Part shown: positions 3,646 through 45,460 of the stretch, one piece after another | Layout: every line of letters begins with the position of its first letter | Numbering within the stretch: position 1 is the stretch's first letter | Assembly (NCBI GenBank): GCA_000002445.1 | Contig: CM000208.1 | Coordinates: 320,001-384,000, forward strand | DNA: 64,000 nt | Direction of reading: 5' to 3' | Source of the DNA: Trypanosoma brucei | Lineage: Eukaryota | Made by a program: the position numbers and the translations under genes | Notes under the pieces: model-generated | The model's input: only the letters and a program-made list of their open reading frames with translations | What the model was told of the DNA's origin: nothing | Database searches by the model: none

Positions 3646-5727
3646 TCACACTGACCCCAGCTCTTCCGCCCACTTTTCAAACTGTTTGATTGAGCTCTGT
3701 GAAACAGAAGGTTGGATTTTCTTCAGAGCATCCTCAAAGTCATTCATTGTAACTGGGGAAACAATCATCTTGCCTCCCTCCTTCATCGCAGCGATCTCTG
3801 CCGGTGATCTGTCCGCGATTAACCTTCGCATTGGCATCATTGCGGCGTCACGAACAACTAGGTTCATGTCTGCGCCGCTAAATCCTTCCGTTCTTTTATC
3901 GGATATCTCCTCCAGATCAACAGAGGGGTCCAAAGACAAAGTAGCTGTTTGTTTCTTGAGTAAACTCAGTCGTCCAGCTTTATCCGGAAGAGGTATATAA
4001 ATGCGCTTTTCCAGCCTGCGGCGCATGGCCTCATCCAAATCCCATGGACGATTTGTAGTTGCGAGAACCAGCACGCGTTTATCATTTTCAGTGCACAATC
4101 CATCAAATTGCTGAAGCATCTCACTCTTAATACGTCGGCTCGCTTCATGTTCGTTTCCACCTCGAGCAGACATTAAAGCGTCAACTTCATCAAAAAATAT
4201 TGTTGATGGTGCGTAATGGCGCGCAAGATGGAACAGTGACCGCACAATCTTCTCGCTCTCGCCAAAATACTTGCTAATAAGGGACGAGGCGCTGATGTTG
4301 AAGAAGGTCGTTTTGGCGCTTGTAGCCACAGCTCGAGCAAGCATCGTTTTCCCTGTCCCAGGAGGACCAAACAATAGGACACCCTTCCAAGGTTGCACAA
4401 CCCCAGTGAAGAGCTCCGGTACCAACAGTGGTAATATTATGGCTTCCTTCAGTAAACGCTTAGCTTCGGGGATGCCGGCTATGTCATCCCACTCGACGTT
4501 GGGAGACCGTTCAATTATCTCTGCTTCAATGCGTTCAAGTAATTCAGGAGCAATACCTGGAGGAGCACAGGGTGCAACTGAGTTCAACACCTTATCTTTT
4601 GGTACTGCCTTATCAACCACTTTCCCCTTACGATTAGAAACCTTGTCAGGAAACGCTGCCTTTCCACTGGAGCAAAGGGGCTCCTCTTCCACTATTGGGA
4701 TACCCTTCTTGTTTGTGTCACTCTTCTTGGGAGACAAAGTAAACGGTGGTGGCCTACCGTACAGTTTGTTTGCCGGGGGTTTGTGTCCTTCTACTACGGC
4801 AACCTCTCTCACCGATATCTTTCCACCCGTCGCAAGAAGTATGGGAAGCGATTCACCCAACCGAACTCCAGGAGCGTGGAGGGTTGGGCAGACAACCTCA
4901 CCGTTGATTGATAAACTAAAATGCTCAGATGATACCAGCAACGTTATGGTTACGCGCTCTCTGATCAACCGGAGGGTCTTCATGGGTTCCAATAGTTCAA
5001 GTCGCTCAAACGTGTCTTGCTCCGTCATTCGCCACTTTTCCACCGAAAGAAAAATACCACCAGAGGAATCATAATGGACCAAAGCCACACAAAACCCCTG
5101 TCTCTCGTCTCCCGCCCTGGGAGTTATTCCCATACCAAACATTGCATACCGTCCTTGACTTACCAAGCTTTGGATTTGCGCAGTAAAGCAAGCGATGTTT
5201 TTGCCCTGTGGAAGAGGCGCTACCGTTCGAAGCGCCAACAGATCATTGCAGTGAATTTTCGTGTTCTGAGCATAGTGGACTTCTTCACATATAAAAAGTA
5301 TGTTCGATCCCATTGCATTTTGCCTCTGAATGCGGCCACCTGAGCACATCAAAGTCCATCCAGGTACACGATCGCTGGGTTGTTGGAGACGCACCGGCAT
5401 ATTCGGAATACAAGATTCTTCGTCCAGCGGGTTTACCCAAGGGGGTCGGTCCGTGTAGTCGCCAAACTGAGAAAATGTCCAACCAGTGGTGCTCCTGACT
5501 TGTTGGGACCGTGGTACTGTGGGCATGATACCCTCACGCAACAGGGCATTGCGCTTACCGTTGCGGGGAAAACTTCGAACCGTTCCATGACTTGGAGCAT
5601 TTCTAGAAAATCGGTTAAACGCATCTTGGGTCCGTTTGCTTTGAAGAGAGGAGTAAATTGCCTTTTGAAGCCCCACGTCGTCGTCCATTGGTAAAAACCC
5701 TTTGCAGCCGCAGTTTATCAGCACCAC
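3646..5727 (-). CDS. Meiotic-clade AAA ATPase (katanin p60 / spastin / fidgetin-like microtubule-severing family)
   Basis: 693-aa ORF with Walker A GPPGTGKT. It also has Walker B IFFDEVDAL, sensor ATTNRPWDLDEAMRRR and a Vps4_C-like tail. The long N-terminal region is non-catalytic. Confidence 0.8.
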   Translation of the reverse strand: MVLINCGCKGFLPMDDDVGLQKAIYSSLQSKRTQDAFNRFSRNAPSHGTVRSFPRNGKRNALLREGIMPTVPRSQQVRSTTGWTFSQFGDYTDRPPWVNPLDEESCIPNMPVRLQQPSDRVPGWTLMCSGGRIQRQNAMGSNILFICEEVHYAQNTKIHCNDLLALRTVAPLPQGKNIACFTAQIQSLVSQGRYAMFGMGITPRAGDERQGFCVALVHYDSSGGIFLSVEKWRMTEQDTFERLELLEPMKTLRLIRERVTITLLVSSEHFSLSINGEVVCPTLHAPGVRLGESLPILLATGGKISVREVAVVEGHKPPANKLYGRPPPFTLSPKKSDTNKKGIPIVEEEPLCSSGKAAFPDKVSNRKGKVVDKAVPKDKVLNSVAPCAPPGIAPELLERIEAEIIERSPNVEWDDIAGIPEAKRLLKEAIILPLLVPELFTGVVQPWKGVLLFGPPGTGKTMLARAVATSAKTTFFNISASSLISKYFGESEKIVRSLFHLARHYAPSTIFFDEVDALMSARGGNEHEASRRIKSEMLQQFDGLCTENDKRVLVLATTNRPWDLDEAMRRRLEKRIYIPLPDKAGRLSLLKKQTATLSLDPSVDLEEISDKRTEGFSGADMNLVVRDAAMMPMRRLIADRSPAEIAAMKEGGKMIVSPVTMNDFEDALKKIQPSVSQSSIKQFEKWAEELGSV

Positions 5728-5869
5728 AATAACAAACTTTTCGTGGGCAAAAGCAATCAGATTGCCGTAACTCTACGGGCGCTTTATGTATATATATACT
5801 ACAGTTCTCCCTTTACAAGTTACCAAAATGCAGATAAAGCAAATGGAACTCTTTAAAACTGGAATAACA

Positions 5870-6075
5870 AACTAACAATAAATAACTGCCTTCCCTCCTG
5901 AATCGGCAAAAAACAATTCGAAGGACTGGGGACAAGACAAAGTGAGCAACCAATACGTTCCAAAATAACAATAATTAAAGTAGTTCAAAAATAAAGTTAG
6001 AGAACAAACTGTAAACAATAAGTAGATGCACGTTCCCTCAATCAAGAAAAAAGGAAAACAATGCACAGTAACGTT
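5870..6075 (-). promoter_or_regulatory. Polypyrimidine-rich tract on the transcribed (minus) strand upstream of the AAA ATPase gene. Candidate spliced-leader acceptor and upstream polyadenylation signal region.
   Basis: The plus strand is A/G-rich here, so the minus strand is T/C-rich. This is the arrangement kinetoplastid trans-splicing uses. Confidence 0.35.
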
Positions 6076-7299
6076 AGAAAATAAACAATTCCTCCCTGTG
6101 TCACGAAACTGACCTGCATGGGTAAATCATTACATAGAGGTAACTACTTATTGGACCCGTCCCACTACGTAGTTATGCTGGAGAGGAAAGGATTGGGGCT
6201 CCGATCTCGGGAAACGGCACGTGCTCTATACATCTCTTCCTCCAAATAGATAGAAGTTAATAGAACATGCAAGCAGACAGCAGATGAGCGGAGAACTCAA
6301 AAGAAACTTCAAGCTAAATTGGATACTCGTACAATTTTGCAGCAGAAAACAAAATCCATTGATGTCAAAAAAAAAGCGACTGGAAAATGCTGTAGAGGCA
6401 ACCAACAACTGGCGGTGCTAACAATGAAAACGCCATCCCACATCAAAACATCAGACATCAGCCATATGCTAGAGCGATGAAAAAAGTGAAGACCTATATG
6501 ACCTCAACCCGAGGTATTGAATGAAAACTGTTGTCCGCAGCAGCCGCAACACACAATAAGGGTTTCCCACAAACAAACCCCATGAGACATAATATCTGCA
6601 ACATCAAGACAAAAGAAAAATCGTTCAAACAGCAATTTGAAAACAACGTAGTGAACGCGGGTGAAGGTACTCGTTAATGCGCATAGGGCATGCTGCGGTT
6701 CGATTTTTGAACACAAGCGGGTATAGCCATTCTCAGCCGCCACCACTTGGAGAGGCAAACACTCACGTCCGCAACGAAATCGTCCAACTAACAAGGACTG
6801 TACCTTAAACTGACGATGCCTTCGGCTACGGCAGTGGGGTTGCTGTGAGCACAGTAATCGTTGTTCCCTGCTCGGCAATAGAACCAGCTGATGTCCCCCG
6901 TAACACATTTAGAGTTGCATCGGAAAGAGCGCAGTGCAAAGCCACCGAGGGCTACATGTGAGACCTCCCGCTTCACAAATATCATAGTAATACATGCAGA
7001 AATAGCCATCAGCACCGTCGGTGACGATCAACAACAAGCGGTCTCCGACCTCTTCTCTCCGCACCTTTACGCCGAACATCACTATCGCAGAGATTGTCGG
7101 AGAACACTCTCGAGGTGCTGACCAGAACCACGGCAAACCAAAAAAGTTTCCGTTCATAAAACCCGACCCCTACCCTGCGACCATGATGAACAGTGGGCCC
7201 ATTCACAGCACGTCAGCATTGCACCTAGTTTATAAACACTGATCGCACTTTGAGGACCCTGGGCGACTACACCAAGTTACTTACAACGGCCAATCACAA

Positions 7300-8700
7300 C
7301 AATGTGGAAAGGGACCAGGCATCCGTTAAAAGCGTCTATCCCATCCAACTGTTGGTCACCTCTCGTGACGCCGACGGCGCGGCCCGTCAAGGCGGTGAGA
7401 ACGGTACGGCGTAAGAGGGTGAGCCCCCGTCAAAAAGGAAAACCAAAACCGCCACCAACGCCGCAAAGCCAGATGCAGCGCGGCCCCACGACAAACAATG
7501 CTTCGACCCTTCCCAAATCAAGCCCCGGATATACGAATTTGGGATAACCGGTGGCCGAACGCATACCAAGAGAACCGGGCCGCCCCGTCGACGGGGCGGC
7601 CATCGCGTGGACCCACCCGGCCTCGCACGAAGAAACCGGTTACAACCGGGGGGAGCGGAAGAGTTGATGAGTCAGATCCCGGGGAGTAAGGACGGCGTTC
7701 GTTCCTTTCGGTGGCCGTAACGCCTGGGGTGAAGGCTGTGCTCTGCCTTGTGAAGCAGCAGGGGGCTCGGCAGCCCCTGCGCTTCAGGGAGGCGTTCCTC
7801 TTCGCAGAGGATGCGGTAGTGCACAAGATTCGCGAGGAGCGTAGCTTTCCCCGCACAGGAGCGCCGTGTTCGCCGAAATAGGGCACCCAGCTCGCAAAAG
7901 TGTCCGAACTTTTTTCCAACCGCTCACCCCCCACCCTTAATCCAGGGCTTTCTGGGGGGTGTGGCAACCTCTGCTGTCCAGGAAGGTGACCGAAACATAG
8001 GAGGGAAAGCGCCACCGGGGTGCGTCCGCGAAGGTAATCAGAAGTGTACCTGAAAAATGTGAGGGGGACAAGGGGAAGTCTTGGCCCTTTCGATCCACGC
8101 TTTCTCCGGGAGCGCCGCGAATAGGTGTGTTGTCACTTTCGCGCCACTTCAAGGCCGCCTGAGGCCGGCGGGACCGCCGAGAGCTTTTAAACCGCCTCCG
8201 AGCTCTACTAGGGGGGGGGGGGTGGGCTGACGGTGAGATCGTGGTGCGGGTCGTATATGCCTGTCTTTCTCCCTGAGGAACGCGCTGTGGAGTGTTAACG
8301 AAGGAAATAGGAATACCTCTGTCGCGTATGTGATTGGTATGAAAGGCGGTGGCGAGAACAGCGGGATGAGATGTCATAACAGCTCCTTTCCGCTTCGGAA
8401 ATGCTTTGCTTTTGTCAGTGCTCAACTCCGATACCGCACCCGAGTAATGGCCTTCTCCCCCTTGTAGGGCGGCAAACGCCCAGCTACAGCGCAAGCACTG
8501 AGTACCCTCCCAAAGTACACTCGATCGTACGCCGCTTTCAACTACTTCAAAGGACGGAGGAAGCAGCCCAACCGTTAAGAATACCCCTCAGACCACCACA
8601 TCTGCGCGGTCAGCGACGGGCGGTACACAGATGAAACCGCTATTAGAGTCGGACCAAGCTAAGGGTGCCAAACCATCACGGTGTCAGAGTACCGGCATTG
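7300..8700. other. GC-rich island with no coding signal, inside a 6.7-kb ORF-free interval. It contains a G12 run at 8211-8222.
   Basis: Visibly higher G+C than the flanks. Only short ORFs overlapping in shifting frames on both strands. Confidence 0.4.
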
Positions 8701-11700
8701 CTCACCGTAGGGGTAATGGTGTTTCTAGATTAGTATCGAACAGACGAGTTTCCCATGACGATTTCCATTTTCCGAAGCAGACTCCAAAAACGCCTGCAGG
8801 CATGGGAACTTCTGCAGATGGTGGAAAGGATGCGCTTGAGATTGGGGTCCCAAGAGACTTCGACGCAGCAGTCCACGAGAGGAAAGTGCCAAAAAGGATT
8901 GTTGTGGCACCGTTCTCCACAGCCATTGTGGTTTCCTTGAAGCAGAGAAGTGCCGCGATGTTGGGCACGGAGCGCAGCCGGCGACCACTGCGGCGGCACA
9001 GAAATTCTTTTCACAATTGATTTAATTCATTGCCCCTGCTGTGAAGTCAAAGGCGGGAATTTCCGGAAGTAAACCAGATCATCGCGGTAGAAACTTTATC
9101 CTCGAATTTTCTTTCATCCCGCCGCCCAGCATTTTCCCCGTCAGCTTTGGCATACTGTCAGTTGGCTTCGCGGGTAGAAACAGCGCTGTCCCACTGGCGT
9201 TTTTGGTTGGATTCGGCAACGGCGCGGTGATACTATGCACATGTTTCTTTTGCTCTTTTCCAAACCGCATGAGCAGGTTAGGAGGCTGCGGCAGATGCCG
9301 CAACCCGCTCACCTACAGCTTCTTCGGTTCTCTCCCAAACGATTCTTCTTCCCCAGTTTCCACACCGCTGGAGCACCCCGTAAATGACGGCCCACGGTTA
9401 GATATTTACAATAGTTTTAAACATGCGGTCTGTAATTCCAGAAACTCAATACATTTTTGTGAGTGAATGTGTTGAGTGTTCCTTTGCGAGAGGGCTGTGC
9501 ATATGTGCCCGCCCTTGTATGCATCGGCTGCCTCTTTGGAAGGCGGTAACCACTAACAACCAGATTCCAAGTGGTTAACAGATACGGCGCGAATACCAAC
9601 TTTAGCAGCCTCCAACATTCCCCCCCCCCCCTGATGATGAATGGTTTTGAAGCCCCATATCCTCATTCCCGCACAACTGTTTCATTCGACACCTTCTTCA
9701 TTAGTACAATGAGGTCCACCCCCTTGATGTTTATGCGCCTCATGATTCTTCCGGGCGCCGCGGCTCCGCACCCCTTCCTCCTAGTAACTGCTTGAGCCGC
9801 AATTTGGCAAATAAAATGTGCAATGGCATCATTGAGATATTCTCCTCTCTTCAACAACTTTCTCACGTGTGGCACGGTACTCTGTCGCGCTCCGCCTCCA
9901 AATGTCGGTCAAACGACCACCCTCCACGAATACGATAGCCTCTAAGGCTTTCAACGTACAAATCTCCCTGTCATTCCCAAGTGTTGCATCGCAAGGGATC
10001 CAACTGCAACTGCTTCCAGAGTTCCTCAAAGCTTTCCATATTGTTATCTCAGAGTGTTTAAAGCAGATCACATAAGACGGGGGGAACTCTCCTTTAACTG
10101 ATCTTTATCGTATTAGGGCTCTTCTGTTGGCAACTGAAAATGCCTGTTCCATACATTCGCCAGTTATCAACTTAACATCCTTCTTCTGCGCAACGGTTCC
10201 GGCTTTTCCATGACTCCATTAGAGCCGTTTTATATTTGAGGGTGGGGAAGTAGGTTGATGTGACCTTGGGCTGCTCCTCATCCGAAAGCCCAAGCGGAGT
10301 TACCATGCTTTCTGGAGTTCCTTCTGTTTTCGATTCCTCAACAACGGACGCTCCACCACGAATAGACGCAGACGAGCTGCCGGCACCCATGTTGGAGGGG
10401 GTCGTTTGTAGGCTTTGATAAATGTAGAATGTTGGTAGTCAGCTTCCCCTAATTGTTATGGATGTCTCCCTTGAGGGCGCCAAAAGCCCACCATGTTTTA
10501 ATGAGCCATCCTCAAAAGGGACAACCTTTTGCCATCCGAGGCACCGCCCGTGTTTCGTTGTTCACAGTGAAATGGAAATTTCCCTACCTTGCAGTTGGTA
10601 TATCACTTGAAGGGTGAGAGGCGGTTACGGGCATCGCTTGTGACGAAACGCTTGGCAACGTTTCAAGTGCTGGGGGCGCGGCTTTGCATCATGCTTCTTT
10701 CCTCGTCTCAGCAATGTATGCCGCAGGAACCGCCCCGCATTCTGTGCAATGTCGAAAGTGTGGGGTCGGGTGGTAATGACGTGGTGATGGTTTTTGACGG
10801 TGGAGCCATGGCATTTGCTGGCGAACATAATCCCCATTGCACTGTTAGAAGGTTCACATCAAATATACCAATGAGAGCAGAAACCCTCAAGAGGATGAAG
10901 TGCAGAAAGGCGGCCCGAAAATCTCCGCCCCCGCTCGCTTCTGAAAAGGAGGGTTTTGCCACTCAACAGCAATTGAGCCTCATGTTTTCAGTGGAACGTG
11001 GGGGAGCAGAAAAGGAGGTTTGAAAAGTATCAAAGGCCAGAGCGGTTGGCTCGTAACGGCTGCTGCGGATGCTGAGGTTTTGGAGGGTCTATTATTGAAT
11101 TGTGATGGAGTAACTGAAGGGGTATGAACATTCAAAATGACGCTGGGAGGGTTTGCTAAGCTTTACGATACAAACGGTAAGTGTGGGTGCGACCCGACCG
11201 TTTGGACTACTTTCACGGAGCGTACATCATGCTAGGGGAGTGATTTTTTTTTTTTTTTACGAAAGGGTTTGTTTTTCTCGATCACGATCCAAGGTTATTT
11301 TTCATACCTCCCCATGCATTTCCCCAATTCGAAGCTTGGCATTGCAATTTCCTGGGTCTATTTTTGGGACTGGAAGTGGCTGTTTCCTTGTGTTGTGAAA
11401 AGGATGGGGGACGCGACGTATCAAGTGGTAGTCAGTGACCCCCCCCCCCAAAGCCCTCTTTTAGTGTCAACGGCAGAAAAACAAACTATAACTTCATGGA
11501 CGTTAGCAACATTGGCAATGCGTTAGGCTAAAAAGAAGTTGCCGTTACGCCTCATTGATGTAAAAACACAATGAAACGGTTCTGTTTGCGTACGTGTGTG
11601 TGTGCCCGCTTGTGTTTGGTAGGCGATTTTTTTTTTTTGTAGAGTGATCGTCAGACCACTGACCGGTGCGTGCCATTGGACAGCTTCATAGCCGTTATTT

Positions 11701-12413
11701 CAATTGGAAGCGCGCCTTGCTTTATAGCGCAAAGACTACAAATAGCGGTAGAGCCGCTGCCGCGGTGCTCGCCATCATGCGCATAGGCGATTGGAATGTG
11801 TAATGTCAGTCATTCCACCGATCCAGAGTTCCCTTTCCCCTTCTTTTACACTCCCTTCGGGCCCAAGTTTCCTTCCAACCGAACAAACCGGTGTTTGTGT
11901 TGCGTTATTGGTGCCCCTTATCGGTGTTGAGGTTTTTTTTTTCTCCGACTGACCTAGCTGGGGCAGCAACTGTTGTTTTACTTCAAGGGGCCGTTTGCTG
12001 CGCTGCCCCGTCCTCACACTAACGAAAAAAAAACGGGTTTTGTGGCAAGAATGGAAATAGAAGAGGGCACCTCTCAAAACTGGCGGAACCAGCACAAAGT
12101 GAAACGCATGGTGTTAAACTACGCACGCACGCCAAACAGCAGGAGATAAATGCGAAACGACCTTCACATATTGCGCGGATATTTATGAGGGCGCGTGCCT
12201 GGTAAATGGTTTCCGCAGACAACTTACACACTCGGCAGCAACTTAGCTTTCACTCTTAGTAAGGTGAAATGGGTCCTCTCCAACCTCCCCTTTACCCCTT
12301 CGCGCATACGCTCGAAAACAGTTCCGTCTCCCGCTAGCGCCACAGAAACGATGTCCCCCTAGCGACAACCACGCGCATTCTCCACGACCACTGTTTTTTC
12401 AACCACATCTTTT

Positions 12414-13508
12414 TTACACAGAAAGAGTGGTTGCCCACACGGCAGACCCGGACGCGCGGAAAATGACGTTGACGATCCACTCTAGCACCGTAACGGGGAA
12501 GAGGAGCAAATTAAGTGGAAAGGGTAGTGAAAAACCGTTCGCGGCTTGCCATGTGAATCCGATGACGGCGAGGCCGAAAGCGAATGCCTTCACCCAACTA
12601 TCATCGACCTTCACATCCTGTACCACGATTCCTCTTGTTTTGGCCAACTCGAGGGCACTATCCACAAGCATTTTTGAGCCTCGTGTGGCGCAGTGCAGGG
12701 TGATGGTGTATTGGCTCGCAAGCACGGCAATGGTTGTGCCTAGGGCTCCAAAAAGGAAGTTGGAAAAGGGGCCTGCAAGTTTCTGTAGCTCCGGTGGCAG
12801 CGACTCTTCGAGGATGGCTTTAAGTGGGAAAAAACGTGGGGCTGTATCTGCGAGAATACAACCCAGTGTGACGTAATAGGCGAAGCGATCCCGCAACGCT
12901 GCCACAACCGCCATGAATGCCAGGGCAACCGCAGCGAGTTCCTCCTTCACACTGACGGGGTCGACAGATTGCAGAAAGATACGTAACTTGCGCGAGAGCA
13001 GTTCATTCTTCGAGAGACTTTCGTCGCCTGTGGTAACAGTGTAACCATAGCCCGGGGCGTCATCTTTCCTACTGGCCTCCATCGCCGCGACGTAATTCCG
13101 GTGAATAACCTCGGCACTCTTTTTAATGCGATCCCAGCTGGTGAGGTAAACGATTTCCACGGTTGAAAACAGCGTGAAGAAGCAACCCCCAAAGAAACAA
13201 ATGGAAAAACCAGCGATGAGAGGGAGTATTTGGTTCAACTCGTGGGAAGACAGGGACTTAGCGTAGTCCATAAACCTGACGAACAGGGCCTCCACAAACG
13301 GGTAGAGAACGTCAAGAGCCCTCAGAATAGCCTGCGTCAGAGATTTTGCGCCCCCTATCAACGCTGTTTGCTTGGGAAACTGCCGCTCCAGGGCAGCGAA
13401 AAAGTATTCCATGGGTCCCTCCAGGCACCTTTCTTCCGCCATGTTCCTCTCTCTGTTGTTTTTTTTTCTTTTTGCTTCAACCCACTTGTGTTCGTCAGAG
13501 ACACCCAC
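12414..13508 (-). CDS. Hypothetical multi-pass membrane protein
   Basis: 364-aa ORF with at least five hydrophobic helices, e.g. LPLIAGFSICFFGGCFFTLF, LAAVALAFMAVVAAL and AFAFGLAVIGFTW. No family assignment. Confidence 0.4.
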   Translation of the reverse strand: MGVSDEHKWVEAKRKKNNRERNMAEERCLEGPMEYFFAALERQFPKQTALIGGAKSLTQAILRALDVLYPFVEALFVRFMDYAKSLSSHELNQILPLIAGFSICFFGGCFFTLFSTVEIVYLTSWDRIKKSAEVIHRNYVAAMEASRKDDAPGYGYTVTTGDESLSKNELLSRKLRIFLQSVDPVSVKEELAAVALAFMAVVAALRDRFAYYVTLGCILADTAPRFFPLKAILEESLPPELQKLAGPFSNFLFGALGTTIAVLASQYTITLHCATRGSKMLVDSALELAKTRGIVVQDVKVDDSWVKAFAFGLAVIGFTWQAANGFSLPFPLNLLLFPVTVLEWIVNVIFRASGSAVWATTLSV

Positions 13509-15233: not shown

Positions 15234-16019
15234 TCAGTCCACCAACTGCCCCAACTCCTCAGCGCTTAGCGGTGTCGTGACGGACGCCACAATAGGTTTT
15301 ATCACCTCCATGAACTGCTCCACATCGACCCGCACTTTGCAGTCCACATGCCCACCACCCATCCAAAACACTGCCGGTGTAAGTTGTAAGATTTTGTCGC
15401 TCAGAATTACTGGAATTTCCGTCGGTGTGCCGAATGGAGCGACAGCGCCGTGACCAAAGCCGGTTAACTGTAGTGCAACATCTGGCGCGGCAAGGCGAAA
15501 GTTGAACTTTTTCTTGCCAAGTCCCTCGTTCAAACCCTTCACATGCCGCATGACCATCTCCGCGTCAAACTTCTCCGTGTAGGGGTACACAATAAGATAG
15601 TACCGAGAGTTTTCTCGGACGCCGCAATCCTTGTTGGTGCAGTGAGTATTTTCCATGAGAATTGACTTGCACAGATGATGAACGCTGGGGGCGGCAAGCT
15701 CGTCCCGACGCCACTGCAGCGTGTGCTGATAGTAGTCGGAGGGCACCCAACGAAAAACTGCAGTGGTGAGGGAATGCTCGATGCACCAGCGACGCAGAGC
15801 CGCCACTTCGGGAGTATCCTGAGGGCATGGCTGGAGTTCCTTTAAGTCACAAGGGTCACGATGATGTGCCACTGCCGTTGCCTCATTCCTGGGAGTTGTA
15901 TTTGCATTCTGCTGCCCTTCGCCCAGTGATGCCAAGGCCTTCCTCAACTTATTGATATTATTCTCCATGAGTGTATATCGCTGAACCAGCGCCTGGATGC
16001 GGGTTTCCACACTTGTCAT
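15234..16019 (-). CDS. YbaK/ProX-like aminoacyl-tRNA deacylase domain protein
   Basis: 261-aa ORF. The C-terminal GFGHGAVAPFGTPTEIPVILSDKIL resembles the Gly-rich substrate pocket of the YbaK/ProX family. Confidence 0.45.
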   Translation of the reverse strand: MTSVETRIQALVQRYTLMENNINKLRKALASLGEGQQNANTTPRNEATAVAHHRDPCDLKELQPCPQDTPEVAALRRWCIEHSLTTAVFRWVPSDYYQHTLQWRRDELAAPSVHHLCKSILMENTHCTNKDCGVRENSRYYLIVYPYTEKFDAEMVMRHVKGLNEGLGKKKFNFRLAAPDVALQLTGFGHGAVAPFGTPTEIPVILSDKILQLTPAVFWMGGGHVDCKVRVDVEQFMEVIKPIVASVTTPLSAEELGQLVD

Positions 16020-44530: not shown

Positions 44531-45460
44531 GTGGTGCGCCATCAAAATATGGGAGGAAATTCGGTGGGATGAGATTAGAAAGAAAAGATATAGGCCAATG
44601 GATTGTCAAAACGGCGTACATTCGTAAACAAGTGCGTCTACACATTCACCCACTCTCGTGCCGCATGTTTTTAGCACTTCACACATCCGGTGCGCCACGA
44701 TAAGGGGAGGTGGGAAGACTTTAATTTGCAACAGCCGCCTAGCCTCCGTTAATTTTCTCACCCCCAACGGCCAACACAGCACCATTAATTAAATGCGCAA
44801 CAAATCGAAGTGAATAGAAAAGAAATATAAAACCGCAAATAAATGTCCAGGCTTCTGGAACCTACGAACATAAGACCTTAACCTCCCCTAATGGTTCTGG
44901 CCGTTGAGCACGACTGCAAATAAACAAACGCAGCGCACAGGTCCACGCACAAAGCAACCACGCGCCTCATTCCGTTTCCGTATAATTTCCCTACTAACCA
45001 AGTTAAATCACCTTCATCTGAAGCTCACGATGTGTTATAAAGACTGGGGTGCGATGAACATGGCGAAATACCACGAAGAGACAAACCGCTCCGTACGAGC
45101 CTTCTCCTGTCCTTTATGTCACCGTATGGTCATCATTCATCAGAAAAAAAAAAAACGATCCAACCTTTCTTCTTTCCAGGGTAGACAACTACAAGTGACG
45201 GCATAATGTAGCATCTGTTCTCTATCGCCTATATCAAAACAAAACACAACGATGAAAATAATGATAATAATACGGAGGTAACGGCACCAACAACAATACA
45301 ATAGGACAAATAGACAGACCAGTATATATGAATGCATCCAGTTGTCAAATGCATACGTATGTATTGTTAAATAAATTACCTAACTTTACCTCCAGAGGCG
45401 ATTTTATCGACGTCCTCCATCTTACCCCAACATGTCGGTCTTACCCTAAGAGATTCAGTG

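What the first reader, a model, noticed from the sequence alone, without database searches (positions are those of the whole stretch)
5728..12413. A 6.7-kb stretch without a convincing gene in an otherwise densely packed transcription unit
Elsewhere in the window adjacent CDSs are 0.2-1.5 kb apart. Here 6.7 kb carries only short ORFs of 134-185 aa or less. Several of them are chained head-to-tail on the minus strand in different frames (6504-6908, 6788-7015, 6909-7157, 7009-7206, 7518-8015, 7937-8494, 8730-9014). That pattern is what a frameshift-riddled pseudogene or degenerate retroelement looks like, but it can also be produced by high GC, because stop codons become rare. Long homopolymers are present in the same interval: T15 at 11244-11258, C12 at 9620-9631, C10 near 11441 and G12 at 8211. 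The options are a decayed gene or retroposon (an ingi/DIRE-like remnant in a T. brucei context), a long non-coding transcript, or an unusually long UTR.
Basis: partly seen in the sequence, partly recalled or inferred. Interest (0 to 1): 0.65.

Follow-up and report, generated by a model that had tools for sequence, protein, structure and literature searches.

The report
Transcription-unit boundary and inversion breakpoint
The 6.7-kb gene-free stretch on Trypanosoma brucei chromosome 10 is not a dead gene or retroelement: it is an already mapped boundary where one polycistronic transcription unit ends and the next begins, and it carries one of two 1.1-kb inverted repeats that flank a known ~55-kb inversion between T. 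brucei subspecies.

Summary
Window 5728-12413 has no credible gene, and the next-largest intergenic gap in the window is 1.5 kb. The window is T. b. brucei TREU927 chromosome 10, 320,001-384,000; this offset was checked to the nucleotide against published splice and poly(A) sites.

The chained ORFs match what shuffled sequence gives. Six-frame Pfam and Rfam searches are empty. The longest ORF, the annotated orphan Tb10.70.6870, has no homologue outside T. brucei. Nothing in the gap is similar to the same interval in T. cruzi (665 bp) or T. theileri (2.3 kb).

Kolev et al. 2010 (Table S14) end one Pol II unit at Tb10.70.6830, the gene upstream of the gap. They start an "Internal" unit at Tb10.70.6870, inside the gap. 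They also list a 788-nt processed transcript, Tb10.NT.7, at 12018→11230.

In T. b. gambiense DAL972 and T. b. equiperdum, that whole internal unit (katanin to the carboxypeptidase genes) is inverted. The breakpoints are at window 9458 and 10574. The 1117-bp segment between them sits at both ends in inverted orientation. This corresponds to the 55-kb inversion of Jackson et al. 2010.

Verdict: known biology (an internal transcription start region plus a known inversion). The repeat-flanked breakpoint structure is a modest new detail.

The parts
5728..12413 (-). The gene-less interval. It equals Tb927_10_v4 325,728-332,412 and lies between the last gene of one Pol II polycistronic unit and the first conserved gene of the next.
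12414..13442 (-). Tb10.70.6830 (EAN77553), a conserved hypothetical protein of 342 aa. It is the last annotated ORF of the upstream unit Tb10.70.6250->6830.
   Evidence: Identical to P0126. The old ID was assigned by position: Tb10.70.6810 is window 15234-16019, from its poly(A) site and its 243-nt UTR. Unit ends are from Table S14.
11230..12018 (-). Tb10.NT.7, a published 788-nt novel transcript at 0.65 RNA per cell. Its longest ATG ORF is 43 aa.
   Evidence: Kolev Table S7 gives coordinates 332018->331230. The 5' end falls directly after an AG preceded by a polypyrimidine tract.
10001..12000 (+). Block with reversed strand polarity. It is G+T-poor on the minus strand, including the lowest values in the window, so it is G+T-rich on the plus strand. 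Bin 11001-12000 has the most plus-strand matches to 7-mers of the Wedel GT-rich promoter in the whole window. This fits antisense initiation from a bidirectional start region.
9458..10574 (.). Repeat R (1117 bp), one arm of a pair of inverted repeats flanking the invertible unit. Both inversion breakpoints are at its ends. It contains a non-coding 72-aa ORF (10172-10390).
9620..9631 (-). G12 run on the coding (minus) strand, inside R. Its length varies between strains (6-8 G in the others).
   Evidence: G8 runs are among the coding-strand 10-mers used in the synthetic GT-rich promoter.
11439..11449 (-). G11 run on the coding (minus) strand.
8211..8222 (+). G12 run on the plus strand, with polarity opposite to the two runs above. 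A short-read contig of T. equiperdum OVI starts here.
7937..8377 (-). Tb10.70.6870 (EAN77552), an annotated 146-aa 'hypothetical protein' whose DAL972 orthologue is labelled 'unlikely'. It is named as the first ORF of the 'Internal' unit. It is an orphan and probably not a gene.
   Evidence: Exact look-up. Only T. brucei hits among 1.84 billion representatives. No Pfam match.
7578..7601 (.). Perfect 24-bp palindrome GGCCGCCCCGTCGACGGGGCGGCC in the GC-rich core. It is identical in three other Trypanozoon genomes.
5751..7750 (-). Block of 2 kb that is G+T-rich on the coding (minus) strand (0.56-0.61 against a window mean of 0.525). It leads into the katanin splice-acceptor region.
3646..5688 (-). 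Katanin p60 (EAN77551), the first conserved gene of the internal unit, which runs on to the carboxypeptidase genes (Tb10.70.7100).
   Evidence: Identical to P0127. Pfam AAA, AAA_lid_3 and Vps4_C.

Best explanation
The interval is the boundary between two RNA polymerase II polycistronic transcription units of T. brucei chromosome 10. The upstream unit ends after Tb10.70.6830 and one short processed RNA, Tb10.NT.7. A broad, non-divergent ('internal') transcription start region follows. From it the katanin-to-carboxypeptidase unit is transcribed on the minus strand, probably with weaker antisense initiation on the plus strand. Start regions of this kind have no focused promoter and are marked by special chromatin. 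They span several kb and are gene-poor, which is why there is no gene here.

The interval also contains a 1117-bp segment R (9458-10574). A second copy of R, in inverted orientation, lies beyond the far end of the same unit. Recombination between the two copies has flipped the entire unit of roughly 50 kb in T. b. gambiense and T. b. equiperdum relative to TREU927. Because the unit carries its own start region, it can be expressed in either orientation.

Shown here: the absence of any gene, the exact breakpoints, and the repeat pair in two genomes. Taken from the literature: the unit boundary and start-site assignment, the processed transcript, and the inversion itself. Inferred: where initiation happens within 8.4-11.2 kb, bidirectionality at this particular site, recombination as the mechanism, and the second repeat copy in TREU927.
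For: IDENTITY AND COORDINATES
- The katanin and the 342-aa protein are identical to the TREU927 entries EAN77551 and EAN77553.
- An offset of 320,000 places Tb10.70.6770 and Tb10.70.6700 exactly on window ORF ends.
- The same offset places both Tb10.NT.7 and Tb10.NT.8 5' ends directly after AG, and reproduces the 243-nt 3' UTR of Tb10.70.6810.

UNIT BOUNDARY
- Kolev 2010 Table S14 lists the unit Tb10.70.6250->6830 (-) and then an 'Internal' unit Tb10.70.6870->7100 (-).
- Tb10.70.6870 is the ORF at 7937-8377, inside the gap.
- The paper states that such sites show 5'-triphosphate reads on both strands and coincide with histone-variant peaks.
- Wedel 2017 describes initiation within H2A.Z regions about 10 kb wide, counts 57 non-divergent start regions, and reports GT-rich elements, including G and T homopolymers, on the coding strand.

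SEQUENCE POLARITY
- 5.75-7.75 kb is G+T-rich on the minus strand. 10-12 kb is G+T-rich on the plus strand, at the extreme of the window.
- Bin 11001-12000 is the top plus-strand bin for GT-promoter 7-mers.
- Three of the four G/C runs >=10 nt in the window lie in the gap.

NO GENE
- Pfam; Rfam; tRNA; ORF lengths at chance; orphan ORF.
- The 72-aa ORF in R has 4 non-synonymous and 0 synonymous differences between strains.

LINEAGE-SPECIFIC EXPANSION
- The same two genes are 665 bp apart in T. cruzi and 2.3 kb apart in T. theileri, with no similarity to this gap.

INVERSION
- DAL972 and equiperdum are colinear with the window from 23.4 kb down to 9458 on one locus, and from 10574 down to 1 on another locus on the opposite strand.
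- R is present at both places in inverted orientation, 48.3 kb apart in equiperdum and 54.1 kb apart in DAL972.
- Beyond R' come the carboxypeptidase genes on the opposite strand.
- Jackson 2010 reports a 55-kb inversion at 275-330 kb of chromosome 10.
- Outgroups share the TREU927 adjacency.
- Coordinate arithmetic leaves about 1,116 bp, the length of R, between the X and Y flanks in TREU927.
Against: - I examined no chromatin, nascent-RNA or 5'-triphosphate data directly. The start-region assignment rests on one published table, which names only flanking ORFs, so the initiation zone is bounded only to about 8.4-12.4 kb.
- On the coding strand, the match to the GT-rich promoter k-mers is ordinary (27-45 per kb against 34 +/- 15 for the window), so the sequence support is mostly compositional.
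- From memory, Kolev et al. used a strain other than TREU927. If so, the orientation of the unit in that strain is not known to me.
- The source of the extra 4-6 kb relative to T. cruzi and T. theileri is unexplained. An ancient mobile-element origin eroded beyond detection cannot be excluded.
- The second copy of R in TREU927 is inferred from coordinates, not read. If it is absent, the repeat pair arose with the inversion (staggered breaks) rather than causing it.
Confidence: 0.8

Rival explanations
1. A degenerate retroelement (ingi/DIRE/SIDER-like) or a frameshift-riddled pseudogene fills 6.4-9.1 kb, and the chained ORFs are its remains.
For: Several ORFs of 65-185 aa follow one another on the minus strand. 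The interval is 4-6 kb longer than in T. cruzi or T. theileri, so DNA was gained from somewhere. An A15 run lies on the minus strand at 11258-11244. Short-read contigs of T. equiperdum OVI break in the interval.
Against: ORF lengths and their total are what local composition gives. There is no reverse transcriptase, endonuclease or any other Pfam domain in six frames at E<=1. The longest stop-free stretch has no homologue outside T. brucei. There is no copy elsewhere in the 64-kb window or in the 5-kb X and 7-kb Y flanks. 5728-8221 assembled as single-copy sequence from short reads. The contig breaks sit at a homopolymer and inside R, not at element ends. I had no ingi/RIME/DIRE/SIDER consensus sequences, so a direct nucleotide comparison was not done.
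Confidence: 0.06
2. The interval is chiefly RNA: a very long 3' UTR of the upstream gene, a very long 5' UTR of katanin, or a long non-coding RNA locus inside one continuous transcription unit.
For: Tb10.NT.7, a 788-nt spliced and polyadenylated RNA with little coding potential, maps to 12018->11230. Table S14 treats the orphan ORF Tb10.70.6870 as the first ORF of the internal unit.
Against: Tb10.NT.7 covers only 12% of the interval, and no other novel transcript is listed between 325.7 and 332.4 kb. The splice-acceptor site at 12018 caps the upstream 3' UTR at under about 400 nt. A published map places a unit boundary here rather than a continuous unit. No Rfam family matches, even at E<=1.
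Confidence: 0.06
3. Functionless spacer. The DNA accumulated at a rearrangement-prone site, and the 'internal start site' is a by-product of read mapping or of strain differences in orientation.
For: There is no conservation outside T. brucei. Synteny is also broken just upstream of katanin in T. vivax. R differs from the other strains' copies by 2.2%, against about 1.2-1.4% for the long colinear alignments.
Against: In the inverted arrangement of DAL972 and equiperdum, the katanin unit points away from the unit that precedes it in TREU927, so that unit cannot feed it. It may therefore need its own initiation site in the sequence that travels with it, unless the plus-strand unit upstream of X reads through. 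Strand polarity of composition flips inside the gap as at divergent start regions. G/C homopolymers are enriched. A 24-bp palindrome is perfectly conserved among four genomes that differ by 1-2% around it.
Confidence: 0.08

Closest known systems
Non-divergent ('internal', head-to-tail) RNA polymerase II transcription start regions of T. brucei (Siegel et al. 2009, from memory; Kolev et al. 2010, PMC2936537; Wedel et al. 2017, PMC5579346)
   Same: It lies between two same-strand units and is listed as the start of an 'Internal' unit. It is several kb wide, gene-poor and lacks a focused promoter motif. It has G/T-rich and homopolymer-rich sequence whose polarity differs on the two sides.
   Different: This instance also carries an inverted-repeat arm and an inversion breakpoint. 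The coding-strand GT k-mer signal is unremarkable. The interval is absent from stercorarian trypanosomes, where the two flanking genes are 0.7-2.3 kb apart.
Inversions between inverted repeats by homologous recombination (for example plastid genome isomers, the yeast 2-micron plasmid, and NAHR inversion polymorphisms in human and Drosophila genomes); alternatively, inverted duplications created by staggered breaks at inversion breakpoints (described in Drosophila). All from my own knowledge.
   Same: Two copies of about 1.1 kb lie in opposite orientation exactly at the two breakpoints. Both orientations exist among close relatives. The copies within one genome are more alike (0.2-0.9% different) than either is to the TREU927 copy (2.2%).
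   Different: The flipped segment is exactly one polycistronic transcription unit together with its start region. No site-specific recombinase is implied. Whether flipping recurs or happened once is unknown.
ingi / RIME / DIRE non-LTR retroelements of T. brucei
   Same: They are a common cause of indels and rearrangements in this genome (Jackson 2010), and they leave frameshifted ORF chains of similar appearance.
   Different: No reverse transcriptase or endonuclease signal, no repeat copies and no excess of open reading frames were found here.

Membership tests
T. brucei non-divergent Pol II transcription start region | Experimental marks of initiation: 5'-triphosphate or primary-transcript reads, and H2A.Z/H2B.V/H4K10ac enrichment | not testable with these tools
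   Taken from the literature. Kolev 2010 Table S14 starts an 'Internal' unit at Tb10.70.6870, inside the gap, and ends the previous unit at Tb10.70.6830. The text says these sites coincide with histone marks. I did not see the raw tracks.
T. brucei non-divergent Pol II transcription start region | Lies between two units on the same strand, several kb wide and gene-poor | tested here: met
   All genes of the window are on the minus strand. The gap is 6.7 kb with no credible gene. Regions about 10 kb wide are described.
T. brucei non-divergent Pol II transcription start region | GT-rich elements and G/T homopolymers enriched on the coding strand | tested here: inconclusive
   5.75-7.75 kb is G+T-rich on the coding strand (z +0.8 to +2.2), and G12 and G11 runs lie on that strand. 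However, 7-mers of the synthetic GT promoter are at the window average on the coding strand, and are highest on the opposite strand at 11-12 kb.
Inversion flanked by inverted repeats | Two copies of the same sequence in opposite orientation at the two breakpoints | tested here: met
   T. b. equiperdum: L003 5116-6228 and L001 12873-13984, on opposite record strands, with 10 mismatches. DAL972: L004 5125-6235 and L015 12898-14013, with 2 mismatches.
Inversion flanked by inverted repeats | Homology to the other arrangement ends exactly at the repeat boundaries | tested here: met
   Colinearity with the window stops at 9458 in L001 and L015, and at 10574 in L003 and L004.
Inversion flanked by inverted repeats | The non-inverted genome (TREU927) also has both repeat copies | tested here: inconclusive
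   The second copy lies outside the window. Published TREU927 coordinates put the end of flank X at 276,267 (anchored on Tb10.70.7110 and Tb10.70.7120). They put the start of flank Y at 277,384 (anchored on the Tb10.70.7100 stop codon). That leaves 1,116 bp between them, against 1,117 bp for R. The sequence itself was not read.
ingi/RIME/DIRE non-LTR retroelement | Reverse transcriptase and AP-endonuclease coding remnants | tested here: not met
   Six-frame translations with stops masked, searched against Pfam at E<=1, gave 0 families.
ingi/RIME/DIRE non-LTR retroelement | Dispersed multi-copy sequence | tested here: not met
   There is no second copy in the 64-kb window or in about 12 kb of other T. 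brucei sequence fetched, apart from R at the inversion ends. This is a limited sample of the genome.
ingi/RIME/DIRE non-LTR retroelement | Nucleotide similarity to the element consensus (5' signature, RIME halves), poly(A) tail and target-site duplication | not tested
Pseudogene of a known protein family | Significant similarity of the translated sequence to a protein family or to a gene at the syntenic position in relatives | tested here: not met
   tblastx against the T. theileri, T. cruzi, T. vivax and T. grayi loci found nothing in 5728-12413. A chimeric-query search failed its positive control and is not counted.
Structured RNA gene cluster (snoRNA, tRNA, rRNA) | Match to a covariance model or tRNA predictor | tested here: not met
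   Rfam at gathering threshold and at E<=1 gave 0 matches. ARAGORN gave 0.

The most novel reading that the evidence does not exclude
The katanin-to-carboxypeptidase unit is a self-contained invertible cassette: one complete Pol II transcription unit with its own start region, bracketed by 1.1-kb inverted repeats. One repeat lies within the zone where initiation is mapped. Homologous recombination can flip the cassette, and it is found in both orientations among T. brucei subspecies. Each flip swaps a head-to-tail boundary and a convergent boundary between its two ends. If flipping recurs, it would be a natural experiment on how unit orientation, termination and replication direction interact in a genome without regulated promoters.
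Probability: 0.55. Interest if true: 0.45.

Novelty: already known. Interest (0 to 1): 0.27.

Why it matters
The result removes a false lead: there is no hidden gene, pseudogene or retroelement here. The practical lesson for a genome scan is that large gene-free gaps inside apparently continuous trypanosome gene arrays are likely to be internal transcription start or termination regions. The modest new point is that a published subspecies inversion corresponds exactly to one transcription unit plus its start region, and is bracketed by 1.1-kb inverted repeats with base-precise breakpoints. That offers a simple reason why the rearrangement could be tolerated, and it gives ready PCR junction markers for typing the orientation in field isolates.

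Tried and rejected
- Retroelement or pseudogene. Pfam on ten individual ORFs and on all six masked frames found no family for any ORF inside the gap.
- Structured RNAs. Rfam at two thresholds and tRNA prediction found nothing. Tandem repeats were limited to the T15 run.
- Small myristoylation-like ORF MGAGSS... (10172-10390) as a missed gene. Rejected: it has 4 non-synonymous and 0 synonymous differences between strains, it is not in the protein collection, and it has no listed transcript.
- Paralogous katanin fragment in the gap. This was an artefact of my reading a multi-record FASTA file as one locus.
- One large search with all stop-free stretches >=80 aa joined by X spacers. It returned nothing, not even the identical annotated ORF, so it failed its positive control and is uninformative.
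- Exact look-ups of the window's katanin and PDCD2_C proteins. These found no TREU927 contig because the reference is not in the gene-position index, so the far end of the inversion in TREU927 could not be read.
- A second coordinate-level source for the start region. It gave no coordinates.
- GT-promoter 7-mer counts. Only weakly informative.

Full report
WHAT THE WINDOW IS

All large ORFs are on the minus strand. The 364-codon ORF next to the gap matched a T. brucei hypothetical protein. From their ATG codons, this ORF (342 aa) and the katanin ORF on the other side are identical to the TREU927 proteins EAN77553 and EAN77551.

Published coordinates fix the position. With window = Tb927_10_v4 minus 320,000:
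- Tb10.70.6770 (343533-343982) and Tb10.70.6700 (358984-359331) end exactly on window ORF ends 23533 and 38984.
- The 243-nt 3' UTR of Tb10.70.6810 is reproduced.
- The 5' ends of two published novel transcripts fall on the first base after an AG that follows a polypyrimidine tract.

The finding is therefore chromosome 10, 325,728-332,412.

THE OBSERVATION

Other gaps between the large ORFs in the window are at most 1.5 kb.

The ORF chain carries no information:
- In 300 shuffles that keep local dinucleotide content, the longest stop-free stretch on the minus strand averaged 175 +/- 39 aa. The observed value is 216 aa.
- The total length in long stretches was average.
- The longest ORFs lie in a 58-65% GC core.

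The homopolymers are enriched. Six of 16 runs >=10 nt, and three of four G/C runs, lie in the gap.

IS ANYTHING ENCODED?

- There are no Rfam matches at gathering threshold or at E<=1, and no tRNA.
- Pfam finds nothing on individual ORFs or on all six frames with stops masked.
- The only annotated gene in the interval is the 146-aa ORF at 7937-8377. This is 'hypothetical protein Tb10.70.6870' (EAN77552), and its DAL972 counterpart is labelled 'unlikely'.
- The 216-aa stop-free stretch containing that ORF found only T. brucei copies among 1.84 billion representative proteins.
- A 72-aa ORF starting MGAGSS has four amino-acid changes and no silent change between strains, so it is not under coding constraint.
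- A pooled search of all long stop-free stretches returned nothing. It also missed the identical annotated ORF, so I disregard it.

COMPARISON WITH OTHER TRYPANOSOMES

- In T. cruzi the orthologues of the two flanking genes are 665 bp apart. In T. theileri they are 2.3 kb apart, on the same strand.
- Neither BLASTN nor TBLASTX finds any part of the gap in the syntenic loci of T. theileri, T. cruzi, T. vivax or T. grayi.
- In T. vivax, the 10 kb upstream of katanin contains no orthologue of the 342-aa gene and resembles nothing here.

The interval is thus a lineage-specific expansion at a place where gene order is unstable in salivarian trypanosomes.

WHAT THE LITERATURE SAYS ABOUT THIS PLACE

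Kolev et al. 2010 (PMC2936537) mapped putative Pol II initiation sites with 5'-triphosphate RNA-seq. They state that these coincide with histone-variant peaks and give sense and antisense reads.

Their Table S14 lists, on the minus strand of chromosome 10, a unit from Tb10.70.6250 to Tb10.70.6830. It then lists an 'Internal' unit from Tb10.70.6870 to Tb10.70.7100.
- Tb10.70.6830 is the 342-aa gene. I assigned this by position, counting from Tb10.70.6810 at 15234-16019.
- Tb10.70.6870 is the orphan ORF inside the gap.
- Tb10.70.7090 and Tb10.70.7100 are serine carboxypeptidase genes.

A unit boundary with an internal start region therefore lies between about 8.4 and 12.4 kb of the window. Their Table S7 also lists one processed transcript in the gap, Tb10.NT.7, at 12018->11230. 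It is 788 nt, present at 0.65 copies per cell, and its longest ATG ORF is 43 aa.

Wedel et al. 2017 (PMC5579346) describe initiation within H2A.Z regions about 10 kb wide, and count 57 non-divergent start regions. They also report GT-rich elements with G and T homopolymers on the coding strand.

SEQUENCE FEATURES THAT FIT

- Composition flips inside the gap. 5.75-7.75 kb is G+T-rich on the minus (coding) strand. 10-12 kb is G+T-rich on the plus strand, and holds several of the most extreme values in the window.
- Bin 11001-12000 has the most plus-strand matches to 7-mers of the synthetic GT promoter in the whole window. Coding-strand counts are only average.
- G12 and G11 runs lie on the coding strand at 9620 and 11439. 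A G12 run lies on the opposite strand at 8211.

This resembles a small divergent start region embedded in a same-strand array. It is circumstantial evidence.

THE INVERSION

Fetching the loci that encode the flanking proteins in other genomes showed that they are not neighbours there.
- In T. b. equiperdum IVM-t1, the 342-aa gene locus follows the window from 23.4 kb down to 9458. It then continues into a carboxypeptidase gene, a TCP-1 chaperonin and a kinase on the opposite strand.
- The katanin locus follows the window from 10574 down to 1, on the other strand of the same chromosome. It is preceded by 5 kb of unrelated gene-less sequence, which I call X.
- T. b. gambiense DAL972 shows the same two breakpoints and four carboxypeptidase copies after the breakpoint.

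The 1117 bp between the breakpoints (R) is present at both loci in inverted orientation. The copies are 48.3 kb apart in equiperdum and 54.1 kb apart in DAL972. Divergence between copies:

| Comparison | Mismatches |
|---|---|
| R vs R' within DAL972 | 2 |
| R vs R' within equiperdum | 10 |
| TREU927 R vs any other copy | 24-25 |

Jackson et al. 2010 (PMC2854126) reported a 55-kb inversion at 275-330 kb of chromosome 10 between TREU927 and DAL972. This matches it in position and size. The inverted segment matches, gene for gene at its two ends, the 'Internal' unit of Kolev et al. together with the katanin-side part of the gap. The TREU927 gene adjacency is the one shared with T. cruzi and T. 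theileri, so it is the older arrangement.

DOES TREU927 HAVE THE SECOND REPEAT?

It lies outside the window and I could not fetch it, so this rests on coordinates.
- The equiperdum ORF L003 4150-4623 has exactly the length of Tb10.70.7110 (474 bp). A neighbouring ATG matches the start of Tb10.70.7120 with the same offset to within 2 bp. This puts the end of X at 276,267 in TREU927.
- The last carboxypeptidase gene ends at 278,259, from its poly(A) site at 278,038 plus a 221-nt UTR. The flank Y between that gene and R' is 875 bp. Y therefore starts at 277,384.
- That leaves 1,116 bp between X and Y, the length of R.

I therefore favour recombination between two pre-existing inverted repeats, but this is an inference.

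MECHANISM, WITH STATUS OF EACH STEP

- Shown: there is no gene, and the two breakpoints and the repeat pair exist in two independent assemblies.
- From the literature: the upstream unit ends here, the next one starts here, and initiation at such sites is broad and bidirectional.
- Inferred: polymerase from the upstream unit terminates after Tb10.NT.7. Initiation occurs somewhere in 8.4-11.2 kb, a zone that includes R. Because the start region travels with the unit, the unit could stay expressed in either orientation. Each flip exchanges a head-to-tail boundary and a convergent boundary between the two ends.

WHAT REMAINS OPEN

- Where the extra DNA came from.
- Whether R contributes to promoter activity.
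- Whether the inversion happened once or recurs.
- What the perfectly conserved 24-bp palindrome at 7578-7601 does.

VERDICT

The interval is real and unusual for the window, but it is explained by known features of this genome. The only new element is the base-level structure of the inversion.

Noticed in passing
window 7578-7601: A perfect 24-bp GC-rich palindrome, GGCCGCCCCGTCGACGGGGCGGCC. It is the only palindrome >=16 bp in the 64 kb that is not an (AT)n run. It is identical in DAL972, T. b. equiperdum IVM-t1 and T. equiperdum OVI, although these differ from TREU927 by 0.4-1.4% nearby. Its function is unknown; a protein-binding or cruciform site within the start region is possible.
   Followed up: partly
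L008 1-10000 (T. vivax SOPI01000078.1) and L012 (T. grayi): In T. vivax, the 10 kb upstream of katanin has only two small called ORFs and no similarity to the T. brucei, T. theileri or T. cruzi loci. Synteny therefore also breaks immediately upstream of katanin there. The T. grayi contig ends 337 bp upstream of katanin.
   Followed up: partly
L015 14888-21029 (DAL972); L001 14860-16263 (equiperdum): The number of serine carboxypeptidase (Peptidase_S10) copies at the far end of the unit differs between assemblies: at least four tandem copies in DAL972, but only one called in the same stretch of equiperdum. This probably accounts for the different repeat spacing (54.1 against 48.3 kb).
   Followed up: no
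window 44623-45228 (-): The published novel transcript Tb10.NT.8 (605 nt) lies in the 1.5-kb gap between the 987-aa and 234-aa ORFs. Its 5' end is directly after an AG.
   Followed up: partly
window 1-23400 vs L003, L004, L005, L013: In this region TREU927 is 99.4-99.6% identical to most of the aligned length of the T. equiperdum OVI contigs (one 1.3-kb piece 98.8%, one 107-bp piece 97.2%). It is only 98.6-98.8% identical to DAL972 and to T. b. equiperdum IVM-t1. The two 'equiperdum' assemblies therefore carry different haplotypes here. The orientation of the unit in OVI could not be determined, because its contigs end at 10160 (inside R) and at 8221 (the G12 run).
   Followed up: partly
window 9620-9631: The G12 run on the coding strand inside R varies in length: 12 in TREU927, 8 in both equiperdum copies, 6 in DAL972.
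   Followed up: no
L003 1-5115 / L004 1-5124 (segment X): The far breakpoint also lies in a gene-less stretch of more than 5 kb. It contains only the non-expressed ORFs Tb10.70.7110 and Tb10.70.7120. In TREU927 it is the convergent region between the plus-strand unit ending at Tb10.70.7140 and the carboxypeptidase end of the inverted unit.
   Followed up: partly
tool behaviour: A 3086-aa query made of ORF translations joined by runs of X returned no hit from the search for homologous proteins. An identical 146-aa protein is in that collection, so results for such chimeric queries should not be read as negative evidence.
   Followed up: yes
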